Source: Phallusia mammillata (Eukaryota). Taken from it: a DNA stretch of 64,000 nucleotides. Location of the stretch: NCBI GenBank assembly GCA_965637545.1, contig OZ281497.1:7068001-7132000 (forward strand), read 5' to 3'. Positions 1-12,000 of the stretch are shown here, piece by piece. The position numbers were made by a program. Position 1 is the stretch's first letter. The number at the start of each line of letters is the position of its first letter.

Positions 1-3000
1 ACATGGTTAAAATTCTTGACAACCTAGCATGGCACCAACATAGATATGTTCCTTTGAAAATACTTTTATATTGTAGGCAAGGCGATCACTAGATGTCCAA
101 TCCCTACTTTGATACTGAATGGTGTTGTTTCGACTAATGGTGTGAATCCGGGCAGTGCTCAATACAGCTGCAACCCAGGGTACGAGCTTTACGGCAATAG
201 GCTAAGAGAGTGCCTTACTGACGGTACTTGGTCAGGGGAGAAACCCACGTGTGTTCAAAACGTCGGTAAGTGAGGTTTTACCCGTTAACAAAATTGGACG
301 AAAATCAGTTGTAATTAGTGACCTAAAGTTCTCAGGGCTTAGGAACACAACTGCAACTAAGTTGGTATTATTCGTTGTGTATAGCATAAACCAAATGATA
401 TTATTATTTGACGTGATCGCTGGTCTGCATGAACGCTCTATGGTAAACCCGGGTATGAGTTTACGTGTTTGACACAAGTACAATTTTTGTAAGGTTTCTG
501 CAACAACCCACCATCTATACTGAACGGCTGGTACAAACTCGTGTATAAAGACACCAGTGATCAATCCAATGCTAAACCGGACACGAGTGATGTCGATTTA
601 ACTCGCTACGGAGTAGGTCAGATGGTGGAGTACGGGTGTAGATCCGGTTTCCAACTGAACTCCGCGGAAACAAAGAAAACTTGTTTGCGAGATGGAAGTT
701 GGTCCGGGAGCGCACTTGAATGCACATGTGAGATTTGATTTAAAGGTTTAAAAAAACAAAATCGTTTGGAAAACCTGTAAAACGATTTATCATTTTTTGT
801 CGATCACGATTACACTCTCAATTCCCTATTTCAAGCTTCGAAACTTGCATCAAAAATTGTAATCTTGAGCCTGTCCCCCAACATACGTATTAAGTTACAT
901 AAATTATCTTCAAAACAATGTCAATCTATTTTTTTACATCATAAAAGCCAAATATTAATTAAATTGTTTATCCCCCAAACAAAGTGTGGTAAAATGGAAC
1001 GTATGTAAACTTTGAACAAGCCAGGGCATTTTGGTGTATTTGAATGCAGTAGTTTTCACTTACAAGTTGATAAAACCCGAATTGGATTTACAGTGAGAAT
1101 AAGGATCCAATGTCCGTTTCCGAGACCGTTGCAGAACGGTGATGTAGAGGCGACTGGTGTCCACCCGGGTGCTACTATTCAGTACAGCTGCAATTCAGGT
1201 TATGAAATTTCGGGCGATTCGAGAAGACGGTGCCTTGATGACGGTACCTGGTCCGGACAAGCACCCACGTGTGTTCAAAATGTCGGTAAGTCTTATTACC
1301 AGTGAAGATAAGTTTGTTTTGCTTGTGAACAAATTATGTTTTTCATGACTAATGTGTTTTCTTTTGGATGCTTTTAATTTTCTATCCCTAATTTCCAAGA
1401 TTGTATTCATGTACTAAACATATCCTATATCTTATTTGATTCAAAGTTATATGGTATTTCTAATTTTGTATTGGATGGAGAATACATCAAGTAGTAAAAA
1501 CGAGAAAATTTTTCACCTTATCTTTTGTTTACTTTTCTGCAGGTTTTTGCAACAATCCACCATCCATACTTAACGGCTGGTTCAAGATTATTTATGACTC
1601 CCCCGACGAGTCCAACACAAACTCCGAAACGAGTAACGTGGATTTAACTCGCTATGGAGTAGGTGCGGTGGTCGAATACGGATGCAGATCGACTTATCAG
1701 CTTAATTCTGCTGATAAGAGAAAAACGTGTTTGAGAGATGGCAACTGGTCTGGAAGTAACCTGGAATGCATATGTAAGCTAAGACTTTACCATAACTTTG
1801 AATTATGACTATAGGGTGTTAAGCTTTATACATACACAAGCTCAATTGCATCGCTAATTTGATTTCATTTAGTTTGTTGTGGAAAAGAAATAATGCCATA
1901 AAAAAGTGTCAGGTTGTAAATGATTTACAACAGAAAATGCTCTATGATTAAATCCATCAAACTATGTTAGGCTTTTCAAATTCAACTTTGAACATTATTG
2001 TAGTTGTACTTAGGGAGCGGCACAAAGACCTAAAGCCGTTTGAAAGTGATAAATCATAGTCATCAAAAAATTTGGTGAAAACTTAGTAAAGGCTCCGTAG
2101 GTAAATTAAGGTTAAATTCGCTGCACCTACACATACCTTTGAATTAAATAAAATATTTGTTAACAGTGAAGAAAGTGGCACAATGTCCTCTCCCTCCTCC
2201 CATACAGAACGGAGTTTTGGAGGCGACTGGTGTTTACCCAGGAAATGCTGCTCATTACAGTTGCTATTCAGGTTATGAGCTTTCAGGCGATAGTAGAAGG
2301 CAGTGCCTTGGTGATGGTACTTGGTCAGGGGAAACACCCACGTGTGTTCAAAATGTCGGTAAGTAAAGCAATCCTAAAATGATGTGCTCACAAATAATTC
2401 GCGAAGGCCTTTAATATTACTTTCCCTCTTCAGTGACCTTCTAACCACATTTTAACTTGTTTTAAGGTTTCTGCAACAATCCACCATCTATACTAAACGG
2501 CTGGTACAAACTCGTGTATAAAGACACGGATCAATCCAATGCTAAACCGGACACGAGTGATGCTGATTTAACTCGCTACGGAGTAGGTCAAATGGTGGAA
2601 TACGGATGTAGGTCCGGTTTCCAATTGAATTTCGCGGAAACAAAGAAAACTTGTTTGCGAGATGGAAGTTGGTCCGGGAGCTCTTTACAATGCGTACCAG
2701 GTAAAACTTCTGATTGTCTTTTTTTGTTTTTGTTCGCTTTTGCTAACGATTATAGTTGAAGGCACAACTGTGGCAACCTATGTACATTAGAAAACACTAT
2801 TTTTTTTTACTGAAACCAATTTTCAACAACTCTAATACCCAAAAATGTAAAATGTTTCTTTACACATAATTTGTGTTTTCTGCTCTTTTATGTTATACAA
2901 CTTTTAAAATTACATTGGGATAAGCAATCTTTTTTGCTTACGAAAACGCGTCGGTCGAAACAAACATTTTTCAATTTATCTTTTTTTGCAACAAATTTAT

Positions 3001-9000: not shown

Positions 9001-12000
9001 AATTTAAAAACCAAACGTACATGTTGCATAAGAAGACAAACACACATGAGTTTAATCTATGTGGTTGTATGCAACCACTTATATTACCACACTGTACCAA
9101 TGTGCCCAAAACTTTGTTCATCGGATCTTGGTATTTATTATGTTAACAGTTACTAACCGTAAACATTTTGTCCGGTCAAATGCATTTTTGCCCATTGAAA
9201 GATAACAAAAAGTGAATATATTCACTAACCTTAATGTTTACAAACCTTAATACAATAGTTGTCAGCTGTTGGAAGCAGAAACGCAAGATAGCTTCACGAT
9301 CCTGTTGAATCTACAATCGTGCGGCACAGAGCAACTTTATACCGGACCGACGATCATTTACATGAACAGAGTAAGTGAAATCTTATTTTTGTTCTACTTC
9401 AATATAATCCATTCTATAAGCTAACATCAATTTTGTGTGAGAACGTTGCCTTGATTTGTGAAGTGGTGAAAGTGATTCTTTTGACCAGAAAGCTTTTTTT
9501 TTATCAATAGATTTGGTGGGATCGTTTGACTGAGAACGGACGATTAAGTTTTACAAAACCTGTGGCAGAAGTATCCTGCACCTATCCTACAGTGTACCAC
9601 GTACAGTCAGCAATCAAGCCATTGTAAGTCAATAGGTTATATCCTTTGTCTTTAACAGCAACAACGTTTTGTTACTTTTGGCCACTCGCTGGGATCACAG
9701 CGAGTTAGACAGGTCCACTACCTTTTGCTTTTGGACAGAAATAATTTGACCTTTAAATGTGAAAAAACTCATCCCATTTCTTTTTGAAAACACGACATAA
9801 ATGTGCATTGTATCAAAATTTCTCAAAATTGTCAAGGTATCTACAAAATGTAACTGCATCTAAAGCACATTTTATTAAATGGTACAAACCTTAAGACTCT
9901 GCCTTTCGATGCTTTACAGTTGCTGTGATCCAGTGCCGCGCAAAACGGACTTTGGAACCTTTCTCTTGCGATCTGCTCTTCACAAAAATCCACCTGGAAG
10001 TGGAAAAAAGAGAATACCTGTTAATCCGGATCAGCGTGGTATTGCAACGTACACAGTAGGAGAGATGATTTACCTGACTGTTACTCTTGATCTCGGACCA
10101 AGGATGGCGGTTTATTCGGACGATGAAACACGAATTTTGTTTCCAAGATTCACTATGTGTTGGTTATCGCCAGGATTAGATGAAGGACAGCCCGATGATA
10201 GTCTTATCATTTATCCCAAGTATGTAGAGTTTCATTACAAGTTTCCCGCAGGTTGATGTTAAATATATCTTTATTTTGTGAGGCTTTTATTTGCCCTTTG
10301 TTATGTAGGCTTTAATAAACCAAAGTAAAAACAAGTCATTCCGCCGACCCAATCAATTTCTAGCTTTGACATAGCCTATGTCCAAAAAGTTACATGGTAA
10401 AGCGTTTTAGAAGCATACAAATTACAATTCGCAACTAATATTCTTGACTCGCAAACTGATCACAAACGTGGTATATTATCGACTAAGATAATTCCATAAC
10501 ATGAATAAACCAAGACTCATCTGGTTCAGGACACATTTCGATTCGGTCCTAGATTTAAAACTGAATCTTGTACATTGATCGAGAAGCATTGCTCCGACCT
10601 TTACATGAACAGTATTTTTCAAGTGTGACGTAAATTGAGTTTTTCTTGTGTGGCAGCGACAAGCCAGCGTTCGACGTTTGGGGTCCAGATAACAATTTAA
10701 ACGTGGCTGATATTGGCTTCGAAGTAATTCGGTGGACGAATCCTGATCTGAAGTTCGTGTACATTCACTGCATGTTGCAAGTTTACACGGTAAATTTGAA
10801 GCTATTGAACCCCTTGAAACCGCTTATCGGCACTCTGTTCTGCCTGTTATATTCCTGTTCTTTTAACCACTATCAGTGGTTTGATTCCGGATGCAGAAAT
10901 AAAGTTTCGACTATTTATCACCTTTTGCATGACGTCATCACTTACGTCATTATGTGATGTGTCTCGCCTCTATGGCTGTCCAAAATTAAGATGTGATTAT
11001 TATCTATCAAACAAGCAATGTATTTTCCCGCTTTTAGATGGATCGAGCAAAGCGATCTACTGACGACAATGTCGAATACAGCGAAATTGTAGTGAAAGGT
11101 CCATTTCGAATTGTGACCCCTTACGGGGATATGGCGCCACCAAGTGCGGACAACGAAAGTGCGAAAAGTTTGTGGGACACATTAACTTATGTTGTTGGAT
11201 CTATAAAAAATAGTTTTTGTGGACTTCTTGGTTGTGGTGAAACAATTCGTGGAAATTAAAACTTGAAATGTAAAATCGTTTGCAAAAAAGGTCAATAGCG
11301 TACGAAGAAATGTTAGTTTAGGAAAAAAACAATAGTATATTTAAGTTTTGTTTTTCACAGAGGCAAGCACCGGTTCCCTTTTCACGCCTCTTCTGATTGC
11401 GTTCGTAATTTTGTTTCTTGCATTTGTGGTTGCTATGGTGGTCATTGCAAGATTGGAACTTTGCACATGCCACAGAGATCCGCAGGATGGCAGCAGCGGG
11501 ACTTTGGATTTCAACTAGGACGGATTTTTTTGTTTTCTTTTTTGCTTTGACTTATTTTCGTACAGTTTCATATGTTTTCATTTATGCTATGTGATTAAGA
11601 AACAATACAAATTCTATTTTGCAAAAGGACTTGTTTCGTTTTAAAATGGAAAAACGTCCAAATAGTATTCTGTAGGCGAAGTCTATGTAAAGGGAATAAA
11701 GAATCTTATTCATGTGTAGCACTTAGTTAAAATATATAAATGTGTTGTTTTCAACCGAAGTTTTAACTTCCCATTTTGGCCGCCTTCATACGGGTAATAA
11801 CACTCCAGTCGTGCAGAAATGAACAAAACGCAAAGTCGGGGAAAATGCATACCCTATATCGACACTAAACACAAAGCTAAAGACTTTTAATCCATGGTAT
11901 TCAAGGAACCACCGTCAACGCTGCGTCAATATATATTTTGTGTCTGTGTGGTGTTGCATGAGTAGCAAGTGCAAGACTTTTGTGCATCGCTGTTGGTAAC

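What the first reader, a model, noticed from the sequence alone, without database searches (positions are those of the whole stretch)
77..11518. Unusual mosaic ZP protein: Sushi array, lectin, WAP-like, EGF and ZP in one chain
Seen: one continuous reading frame joins complement-control modules, a C-type lectin, two protease-inhibitor-like modules and a polymerising ZP module with a furin site and TM. Established: ZP modules with a furin site are shed and polymerise into extracellular filaments such as egg coats, uromodulin and cuticles. I do not recognise this domain combination. Inference: a filament-forming coat or mucosal matrix protein displaying recognition and immune modules, a candidate for gamete or self/non-self recognition or for filter-feeding mucus.
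Basis: partly seen in the sequence, partly recalled or inferred. Interest (0 to 1): 0.65.

Follow-up and report, generated by a model that had tools for sequence, protein, structure and literature searches.

The report
Mosaic Sushi-lectin-ZP matrix protein gene
This is the 3' two-thirds of a large, spliced invertebrate-type animal gene encoding a membrane-anchored extracellular protein with complement-type repeats, a lectin domain and a probable filament-forming ZP module. It looks like a lineage-specific member of a well-known class, not a new kind of system.

Summary
They lie in 23-25 short exons spread over all three frames. All exons have AG/GT borders and compatible phases, and none has an internal stop.

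- **Firm:** eight Sushi exons (8 of 8 above Pfam's cut-off) and one complete C-type lectin domain in three exons.
- **Probable but below cut-off exon by exon:** a ZP module. ZP-N scores 19.1 bits and ZP-C 14.7 bits, in the right order. The module is 272 codons with 4+4 Cys, followed by R-A-K-R, a hydrophobic patch, a TM helix and a short tail.
- **Weak:** the two "WAP-like" 8-Cys modules, which are below cut-off with no PDB or fold support, and the "EGF", which has no significant hit.

The only public protein found for the locus (P0006, 895 aa, "SVEP1-like") matches Sushi1, Sushi6 and Sushi7 exactly. It then stops in the intron after Sushi7. The ZP part is in no protein set searched. A single chain is therefore likely but unproven.

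Verdict: a lineage-specific mosaic ZP protein, a new member of a known kind. Taxon undetermined; not human.

The parts
77..265 (+). Sushi/CCP exon 1 (phase 1-1)
   Evidence: Pfam Sushi 51 bits. Exact match to P0006 aa 679-740. AG/GT borders.
494..727 (+). Sushi/CCP exon 2 (long-insert type; phase 1-1)
   Evidence: Pfam Sushi 35.3 bits. Not in P0006. 93% aa identity to Sushi6, Ka/Ks 0.13.
1094..1285 (+). Sushi/CCP exon 3
   Evidence: Pfam Sushi 56.6 bits. Ka/Ks 0.29-0.30 against Sushi1 and Sushi5.
1543..1773 (+). Sushi/CCP exon 4 (long-insert type)
   Evidence: Pfam Sushi 36.3 bits. pN 0.145-0.175 against saturated pS of about 0.76 versus Sushi2 and Sushi6.
2167..2358 (+). Sushi/CCP exon 5
   Evidence: Pfam Sushi 51.9 bits. 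Ka/Ks 0.29-0.31.
2467..2700 (+). Sushi/CCP exon 6 (long-insert type)
   Evidence: Pfam Sushi 30.7 bits. Exact match to P0006 aa 742-818.
3049..3267 (+). Sushi/CCP exon 7 (6 Cys). P0006 reads through its donor to a stop at 3279-3281.
   Evidence: Pfam Sushi 37.2 bits. Exact match to P0006 aa 820-891, and with the read-through to aa 895.
3740..3919 (+). Sushi/CCP exon 8
   Evidence: Pfam Sushi 39.5 bits. Not in P0006.
4179..4329 (+). C-type lectin domain, exon a
   Evidence: 36 of 37 PDB hits are C-type-lectin-fold chains, best E 7.9e-5. No Pfam hit.
4602..4712 (+). C-type lectin domain, exon b
   Evidence: Pfam Lectin_C 17.8 bits, profile positions 31-65 of 107, below the cut-off.
5017..5135 (+). 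C-type lectin domain, exon c. The donor after 5135 avoids the in-frame stop at 5156-5158.
   Evidence: Pfam Lectin_C 29 bits, above the 22.6 cut-off. 15 of 15 PDB hits are C-type lectins, and S-W-N-D aligns with the same residues of langerin.
5540..5684 (+). Optional exon: resembles only the first third of a second C-type lectin domain
   Evidence: Splice sites and phase fit. Single PDB hit, to the CD23 lectin domain at E 1.2. No Pfam hit. Unverified.
5943..6040 (+). Optional linker exon. Together with 5540-5684 it adds 243 nt, which is frame-neutral.
   Evidence: Phase arithmetic only. No similarity evidence.
6481..6657 (+). Acidic linker plus Cys-rich 'WAP-like' module 1
   Evidence: Pfam WAP 15.8 bits, E 0.018, below the 20.8 cut-off. 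BLASTP to P0006 aa 33-59, E 1e-6.
7082..7384 (+). Cys-rich 'WAP-like' module 2 plus a Ser/Thr-rich linker
   Evidence: Pfam WAP 14.8 bits, E 0.036. BLASTP to three P0006 modules, E 2e-4, 0.008 and 0.018. AF2 pLDDT 56.7 and no fold match.
7749..7889 (+). Cys-free exon, copy A of a tandem exon pair (phase 1-1)
   Evidence: 38% aa identity to copy B, Ka/Ks 0.40. No Pfam hit.
8060..8197 (+). Cys-free exon, copy B of the pair (phase 1-1)
   Evidence: As for copy A.
8391..8510 (+). 7-Cys module next to the ZP module ('EGF-like', unverified)
   Evidence: No Pfam hit. Only a DLK1 EGF at E 3.4 in the PDB.
8735..8894 (+). ZP-N, exon 1 (first conserved Cys)
   Evidence: Position and phase. No ZP hit of its own.
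9259..9370 (+). ZP-N, exon 2 (two Cys)
   Evidence: Pfam ZP-N PF23344 19.1 bits, E 0.0017, profile positions 32-74 of 101. No PDB hit.
9511..9623 (+). ZP-N, exon 3 (fourth Cys) and interdomain linker
   Evidence: Phase chain. No Pfam hit.
9920..10219 (+). ZP-C, main exon (3 Cys)
   Evidence: Placed by context only. No hit in Pfam, PDB, 5.8 billion clusters or 1.84 billion representatives. The AF2 model is all-beta but has pLDDT 37.
10657..10789 (+). ZP-C, last exon (1 Cys)
   Evidence: Pfam ZP-C PF00100 14.7 bits, E 0.034, profile positions 96-123 of 133.
11038..11236 (+). C-terminal propeptide: R-A-K-R at codons 3-6, then a hydrophobic patch
   Evidence: Motif found. Layout as described for ZP precursors in PMC8391237.
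11361..11518 (+). Transmembrane helix, short cytoplasmic tail and stop codon (TAG 11516-11518)
   Evidence: Mean Kyte-Doolittle 3.44 over 19 residues. AATAAA at 11695.

Best explanation
The region holds the last 23-25 exons of one large gene of an invertebrate-type animal. The gene encodes a type-I membrane precursor of an extracellular matrix glycoprotein.

The start of the gene lies upstream of the window. It is seen in the public model P0006: a hydrophobic N-terminus read as a signal peptide, three 8-Cys WAP-like modules and eight Sushi repeats. In the window the chain continues as follows:
- eight more Sushi repeats
- one C-type lectin domain
- two more WAP-like 8-Cys modules
- a Ser/Thr-rich linker and two duplicated Cys-free exons
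- a small Cys-rich module
- a 272-codon ZP module
- an R-A-K-R site, a hydrophobic patch, a TM helix and a short tail

By arithmetic this gives about 2,050-2,130 residues.

Proposed mechanism. The precursor travels to the cell surface anchored by its TM helix. A furin-type convertase cuts at R-A-K-R and removes the hydrophobic patch and the anchor. The freed ZP module then polymerises, alone or with other ZP proteins, into filaments of an apical matrix, coat or mucus. The long Sushi/lectin/Cys-rich arm projects from the filament as a ligand-binding surface.

Shown: the exons, their phases, the Sushi and lectin domains, the cleavage motif and the TM helix. Probable: the ZP identity. Inferred from the behaviour of other ZP proteins: cleavage, polymerisation and display. 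Unknown: tissue, ligands and taxon.
For: Gene model:
- 25 of 25 exons have AG/GT borders, compatible phases and no stop.
- P0006 confirms five of these borders independently through exact matches.
- The duplicated Sushi exons that P0006 skips are under purifying selection (Ka/Ks 0.13-0.31). Their introns have decayed to shuffle level in 6 of 7 pairs, and the seventh is barely above it (0.595 against a shuffle maximum of 0.591). DNA repeats are confined to the exons.

One chain:
- All exons from Sushi8 to the small Cys-rich module enter in phase 1 and so need an upstream exon.
- A scan of 3268-8734 found 0 ATG-started, signal-peptide-like exons with a phase-1 donor.
- There is no AATAAA or ATTAAA in 3268-3739, after P0006's read-through stop.
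- The same unusual Cys-rich module occurs upstream in P0006 and downstream in the window (E 1e-6 and 2e-4).

ZP module:
- ZP-N and ZP-C are each the only Pfam hit of their exon. They come in the right order and at fitting profile positions.
- The module is 818 nt (272 codons) with 4+4 Cys, against about 270 aa reported for ZP domains (PMC8391237).
- R-A-K-R lies 2 codons after the ZP-C exon, followed by the TM helix and a short tail.
Against: - The only public protein of the locus (P0006) ends in the intron after Sushi7 and skips Sushi2-5.
- No protein containing the ZP-C exon exists in the 5.8-billion-cluster set or the 1.84-billion representative set. The 5 hits found were bacterial or low-complexity repeats, and 0 of 5 carry a ZP domain.
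- Both ZP hits are below Pfam's cut-offs. Unrelated hits at E 0.06-0.1 also occur among my exon queries.
- The 99-aa main ZP-C exon matches nothing, and its AF2 model is unusable (pLDDT 37).
- An in-frame stop at 5156-5158 is followed by ATTAAA/AATAAA at 5374-5391. This would allow a shorter secreted isoform ending after the lectin.
- I had no transcript, tissue or ortholog data.
- The joined protein was not scanned.
Confidence: 0.6

Rival explanations
1. There are two products rather than one chain. The locus mainly makes a secreted Sushi/WAP-like protein that ends after Sushi7 (as in P0006) or after the lectin domain (stop at 5156-5158). The lectin-to-ZP exons are used only in a rarer long isoform, or belong to a separate gene whose first exon I did not recognise.
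For: P0006 stops at 3279-3281 by reading through the donor at 3267. Poly-A-type hexamers lie at 5374-5391, about 220 nt after the in-frame stop that follows the lectin. No public protein contains the ZP-C exon.
Against: - No poly-A hexamer lies in 3268-3739.
- 0 candidate signal-peptide first exons were found in 3268-8734, although a ZP/TM protein needs a signal peptide.
- Phases chain across all junctions.
- P0006 also skips four Sushi exons that are clearly under selection, so it is not a reliable guide to the full transcript.
- The first-exon scan is a crude heuristic.
Confidence: 0.25
2. The downstream lectin-ZP part is an unexpressed relic of exon shuffling or a young pseudogene. That would explain why annotation left it out.
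For: It is absent from all protein sets searched. The ZP-C exon has no detectable relatives.
Against: The 17 exons from Sushi8 to the TM exon have 0 stops, intact AG/GT borders and an unbroken phase chain over 7.8 kb. The duplicated exon pair 7749-7889 / 8060-8197 has Ka/Ks 0.40. A canonical AATAAA follows the final stop.
Confidence: 0.05
3. This is one chain, but the C-terminal module does not polymerise. The protein stays at the cell surface as a receptor or co-receptor, as the ZP-module proteins endoglin and betaglycan do (recalled).
For: The ZP-C exon is highly divergent. The TM helix and a cytoplasmic tail are present.
Against: An Arg-X-Lys-Arg site directly after the module, followed by a hydrophobic patch before the TM helix, is the layout of the cleaved, polymerising ZP precursors (PMC8391237 passages).
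Confidence: 0.1

Closest known systems
Polymerising ZP-module precursors (ZP1-4; uromodulin/GP2 recalled)
   Same: The C-terminal organisation matches: a ZP module of about 270 aa, a consensus furin site (Arg-X-Lys/Arg-Arg), an external hydrophobic patch, a TM helix and a short tail (PMC8391237 passages; window features).
   Different: There is no sequence match to any solved ZP protein, exon by exon. The N-terminal arm is Sushi, lectin and Cys-rich modules instead of trefoil, EGF or D8C. Pfam scores are below the cut-off.
Ascidian vitelline-coat proteins CiVC57 and HrVC120
   Same: They have a signal peptide, a long array of small disulphide-rich modules, a C-terminal ZP domain and (in CiVC57) a TM helix. 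HrVC120 is proteolytically processed (PMC9265791 passages).
   Different: Their arrays are EGF repeats (24 and 12), not Sushi. They have no lectin or WAP-like modules. No sequence relation was tested or found.
DMBT1/gp-340 (recalled, not retrieved by any search)
   Same: This is a mucosal protein that joins an array of pattern-recognition modules to a C-terminal ZP module. It is the nearest functional analogy to the proposed 'recognition arm on a ZP filament'.
   Different: Its array is SRCR and CUB, not Sushi and lectin. It did not come back as a hit in any search here.
SVEP1 / complement-receptor-type Sushi-array proteins (the name carried by P0006)
   Same: They have long Sushi arrays. The best long relatives of P0006 are annotated SVEP1 or CR1.
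   Different: Identity is only 22-29% (30 of 30 hits). P0006 has only Sushi by Pfam, with no vWA, pentraxin, HYR or EGF. 0 of 30 hits carry a ZP domain.

Membership tests
ZP-module proteins | ZP-N subdomain recognised by profile | tested here: inconclusive
   PF23344 scores 19.1 bits, E 0.0017, against a cut-off of 24.7, on the middle ZP-N exon only. The other two ZP-N exons have no hit. The joined module was not scanned.
ZP-module proteins | ZP-C subdomain recognised by profile | tested here: inconclusive
   PF00100 scores 14.7 bits, E 0.034, against a cut-off of 24.6, at profile positions 96-123 of 133 on the last ZP-C exon. The main 99-aa exon has no hit.
ZP-module proteins | Module of about 260-270 aa with 8 conserved Cys (4 in ZP-N, 4 in ZP-C) | tested here: met
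   The five exons total 818 nt, or 272 codons. Cys counts are 1+2+1 and 3+1. The size range comes from PMC8391237. The 8-Cys rule is recalled.
ZP-module proteins | Consensus furin site, external hydrophobic patch, TM helix or GPI anchor, short tail | tested here: met
   R-A-K-R lies at codons 3-6 of exon 11038-11236. The TM helix scores 3.44 Kyte-Doolittle over 19 residues. The hydrophobic patch was read by eye only.
ZP-module proteins | N-terminal signal peptide | tested here: inconclusive
   Outside the window. The N-terminus of P0006 is hydrophobic by eye. No predictor was available, and the link between P0006 and the ZP part is unproven.
Sushi/CCP repeat | Profile match above the cut-off, 4 Cys per repeat, one repeat per phase 1-1 exon | tested here: met
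   8 of 8 exons score 30.7-56.6 bits against 20.7. 7 exons have 4 Cys and one has 6. All are phase 1-1.
C-type lectin-like domain | Profile match and the 4-Cys short-form pattern | tested here: met
   Lectin_C scores 29 bits against a 22.6 cut-off on exon c. PDB hits are 36 of 37 and 15 of 15 lectin-fold. Cys counts are 1+0+3.
C-type lectin-like domain | Ca2+/sugar-binding motifs (EPN or QPD, plus WND; motif names recalled) | tested here: inconclusive
   W-N-D is present and aligns with langerin's. By my reading, the tripeptide at the expected EPN/QPD place is K-T-N, so canonical sugar binding is doubtful. That position was inferred, not aligned by a tool.
WAP four-disulphide core | Profile match above the cut-off | tested here: not met
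   The two modules score 15.8 and 14.8 bits against 20.8. The three like modules of P0006 give no WAP hit at E<=0.1.
WAP four-disulphide core | 8 Cys with the central C-C doublet; WAP fold | tested here: inconclusive
   7 Cys columns are invariant in the 3-module alignment A1, but with C-x-C in place of C-C. A profile of A1 against the PDB gave 10 hits at E>=3.8, none of them WAP. The AF2 model has pLDDT 56.7, and Foldseek gave 5 hits at E>=3.8, none of them WAP.
EGF-like domain | Six-Cys EGF pattern or profile match | tested here: inconclusive
   No Pfam hit. The exon has 7 Cys. The only PDB hit is a DLK1 EGF at E 3.4.
SVEP1 (name of the public model) | vWA, HYR, EGF and pentraxin domains besides Sushi | tested here: not met
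   P0006 has Sushi only (11 stretches). Identity to annotated SVEP1 proteins is <=29%.

The most novel reading that the evidence does not exclude
The protein is a shed, self-polymerising ZP filament that carries a roughly 1,700-residue arm of 16 complement-control repeats, a lectin domain and five WAP-like modules. That would make it an independently evolved invertebrate counterpart of vertebrate mucosal defence polymers such as DMBT1 and uromodulin. Alternatively it is an egg-coat recognition protein whose arm diversifies by tandem exon duplication, as seen in the three Sushi exon pairs and the exon pair at 7749/8060.
Probability: 0.15. Interest if true: 0.55.

Novelty: new member of a known kind. 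Interest (0 to 1): 0.3.

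Why it matters
If the single-chain model holds, the public annotation of this locus (an 895-aa "SVEP1-like" protein) misses more than half of the gene, including the lectin, the ZP module and the membrane anchor. It also carries a misleading name. The corrected gene would add a Sushi/lectin-armed member to the mosaic ZP proteins that build animal apical matrices, egg coats and mucus. It would be a reasonable candidate to look for in coat or mucus proteomes of the species. 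It does not open a new class of system, because module arrays fused to a ZP polymerisation module are well known.

Tried and rejected
Relatives of the ZP-C exon:
- The word-indexed search of 5.8 billion clusters ('longer') gave 75 candidates and 0 hits.
- The exhaustive phmmer search of 1.84 billion representatives gave 5 hits. All were repeat artefacts (3 InlB-B-repeat proteins, 1 Big_2/SLH protein, 1 low-complexity protein), and 0 of 5 carry ZP.
- The ESM Atlas gave a best score of 0.88, to unnamed clusters.

Structure:
- AF2 of the ZP-C exon alone gave pLDDT 37.1, so it was not sent to fold search.
- AF2 of WAP-like module 2 gave pLDDT 56.7, and Foldseek against the PDB gave nothing below E 3.8.

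PDB by sequence, exon by exon:
- ZP-N exon 1, ZP-N exon 2 and ZP-C exon 2 gave no hit at all.
- The main ZP-C exon gave one irrelevant S-layer protein at E 0.055.
- The WAP-like profile gave no WAP hit.

Orthologues with the full architecture: P0006 in 'longer' mode gave 30 hits, all <=29% identical and 0 with ZP.

The name of P0006 is cut before its taxon. The taxon stays unknown.

Other checks:
- Paralogues elsewhere in the window: none, best E 0.041.
- A complete second lectin domain after 5684: not found. Only a first-third-like exon is there.
- SVEP1 membership: rejected.
- Prokaryotic promoter and terminator scans and the bacterial, phage and plasmid collections were not used, because they are irrelevant to an animal gene.

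Full report
**What is there**

The window is AT-rich (GC about 0.37-0.39 over the first 12 kb) and has no N. It has the look of an animal gene: short open segments in all three + frames, separated by a few hundred bases.

I built that model by eye from the raw sequence, helped by a simple splice-site listing, and then checked it arithmetically. It has 25 exons from 77 to 11518. Every acceptor is AG and every donor is GT. The phases chain without a break and there are no internal stops. The stop is TAG at 11516-11518, and an AATAAA lies at 11695. The first exon enters in phase 1, so the gene starts upstream of the window.

I do not take the contig for human. Its one public protein has no relative above 29% identity among 30 long Sushi proteins, mammalian ones included.

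**Exon-by-exon domain tests**

This costs sensitivity for domains that are split over several exons.

- **Sushi.** 8 of 8 exons are above Pfam's cut-off (30.7-56.6 bits against 20.7). Each is one phase 1-1 exon.
- **C-type lectin.** All three exons have support.
  - Exon a: 36 of 37 PDB hits are lectin-fold chains, best E 7.9e-5.
  - Exon b: Lectin_C 17.8 bits.
  - Exon c: Lectin_C 29 bits against 22.6, and 15 of 15 PDB hits are C-type lectins with W-N-D aligned.
  - By my reading the place of the EPN/QPD tripeptide (motif names recalled) holds K-T-N, so classical sugar binding is doubtful.
- **"WAP-like" modules.**
  - WAP is the only Pfam family hit by either, but at 15.8 and 14.8 bits against a cut-off of 20.8.
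  - They carry C-x-C where WAP has C-C.
  - A three-module profile found no WAP structure in the PDB. The 10 hits were at E>=3.8: 8 fucosyltransferase entries and 2 reelin entries.
  - An AF2 model (pLDDT 56.7) gave no fold match.
  - "Protease-inhibitor-like" is therefore only a lead.
- **"EGF".** This is a 7-Cys exon with no Pfam hit. Its one PDB hit is a DLK1 EGF at E 3.4.
- **ZP.**
  - The middle ZP-N exon hits PF23344 (19.1 bits, E 0.0017, profile positions 32-74 of 101).
  - The last ZP-C exon hits PF00100 (14.7 bits, E 0.034, profile positions 96-123 of 133).
  - Both are below cut-off. Unrelated families also turn up at E 0.06-0.1 among my roughly 30 exon queries, so neither hit stands alone.
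  - The hits gain weight together. They are the two halves of one module, in the right order and at fitting profile positions.
  - The five exons add up to 272 codons with 4+4 Cys, against about 270 aa in the literature (PMC8391237, passages).
  - R-A-K-R lies two codons after the module. A hydrophobic stretch, a strong TM helix and a short tail follow. That is the published layout of ZP precursors.
  - The 99-aa main ZP-C exon matches nothing anywhere.
  - I rate ZP identity at about 0.85.

**The public model and the one-chain question**

A search with the Sushi2 exon returned a single protein, the only one of 9 candidates to pass. This was P0006, 895 aa, from uniref/nr, named "SVEP1-like".

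- **Match to the window.**
  - P0006 contains exact copies of Sushi1 (aa 679-740), Sushi6 (742-818) and Sushi7 (820-891).
  - It then reads through the donor at 3267 to a stop four codons later.
  - It is therefore a model of this very locus, and it confirms five of my splice borders.
  - It skips Sushi2-5 and ends before everything else.
- **Upstream part.**
  - Its first ~678 residues lie upstream of the window.
  - They show a hydrophobic N-terminus (by eye) and eight more Sushi repeats; Pfam finds 11 stretches in all.
  - They also hold three Cys-rich modules that match the two downstream WAP-like exons (E 1e-6 and 2e-4).

*Evidence for a single longer chain*
- The skipped Sushi exons are under purifying selection (Ka/Ks 0.13-0.31). 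Their introns have decayed to shuffle level in 6 of 7 pairs, and the seventh is barely above it. DNA repeats stop at the exon edges.
- There is no poly-A hexamer in the 470 nt after P0006's stop.
- Every exon from Sushi8 to the small Cys-rich module needs an upstream phase-1 partner.
- A heuristic scan of 3268-8734 found 0 signal-peptide-like first exons.
- The same rare module type occurs on both sides.

*Evidence against a single longer chain*
- No public protein holds the ZP part.
- The in-frame stop after the lectin (5156-5158) is followed by ATTAAA/AATAAA at 5374-5391, so a shorter secreted isoform is possible.
- I had no transcript data.

I put the single long chain at about 0.6-0.7.

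Two exons, 5540-5684 and 5943-6040, are optional. Together they are frame-neutral at 243 nt. The first resembles only the first third of a lectin domain: one PDB hit to the CD23 lectin domain at E 1.2 and no Pfam hit. The tandem Cys-free exons 7749-7889 and 8060-8197 share 38% aa identity and have Ka/Ks 0.40. Both are phase 1-1, so they could be used together or alternatively.

**How it most likely works**

This is inferred from established ZP biology (PMC8391237 passages). A type-I precursor is cut at R-A-K-R by a furin-type convertase, which removes the hydrophobic patch and the anchor. The ZP module then polymerises into matrix filaments. The Sushi/lectin/Cys-rich arm is displayed on them.

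By arithmetic the full chain would be about 2,050-2,130 residues with 16 Sushi repeats and 5 Cys-rich modules. This is not a built sequence. Tissue, ligands and taxon are unknown.

**Comparison with what is known, and novelty**

Arrays of small modules fused to a C-terminal ZP module are a known kind.
- Ascidian CiVC57 has a vWF domain, 24 EGF repeats, ZP and TM. HrVC120 has 12 EGF repeats and ZP (PMC9265791 passages).
- Oikopleura oik20 has a ZP domain among house proteins that use CCP and CLECT modules in other chains (PMC3390340 passages).
- DMBT1 and uromodulin are recalled examples.

This particular combination turned up nowhere.
- 0 of 30 long relatives of P0006 have a ZP domain.
- Six full-text searches found no paper describing it in one chain.
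- The limpet-mucus paper that holds all four terms lists the domains in separate proteins (PMC7333891 passages).
- The protein searches reach only annotated or predicted proteins.

It is not an SVEP1 member, since P0006 has Sushi only and identity to SVEP1 proteins is <=29%.

**Verdict**

This is a lineage-specific mosaic ZP protein, a new member of a known kind, plus a probable annotation gap. Interest is modest.

Noticed in passing
window 56410-62262 (-): One uninterrupted 1950-aa ORF of a BEL/Pao-type LTR retrotransposon. Pfam finds Peptidase_A17 at 157.6 bits, plus DUF1759, RVT_1, integrase H2C2/rve and DUF5641. It sits in a GC-richer block (0.49-0.51). No breaks were seen in this ORF. LTRs were not looked for.
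   Followed up: partly
window 32679-34844 and 42510-44689 (+): A segmental duplication about 9.8 kb apart. Each copy holds a 164/169-aa ORF and a 283-aa ORF that are nearly identical between copies. Neither ORF of the first copy has a Pfam hit at E<=0.001. The gene is unidentified.
   Followed up: partly
window 51178-51253 (-) and 51369-51444 (+): Two divergently oriented tRNA-Ser(GGA) genes 115 bp apart.
   Followed up: no
window 40448-40984 (-): A 178-aa ORF in a stretch with strong GC skew (0.218 at 40001-42000). It looks to me like a fragment of a reverse-transcriptase-type element, but it has no Pfam hit at E<=0.001.
   Followed up: partly
window 77-3267 (+): The public model P0006 joins Sushi1 directly to Sushi6, skipping four Sushi exons (494-2358) that are under purifying selection. 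Sushi2 and Sushi6 are 93% identical in protein, which may have misled the gene predictor.
   Followed up: yes
window 5374-5391 (+): A cluster of ATTAAA/ATTAAA/AATAAA about 220 nt after the in-frame stop that follows the lectin domain. It could serve a shorter secreted isoform.
   Followed up: partly
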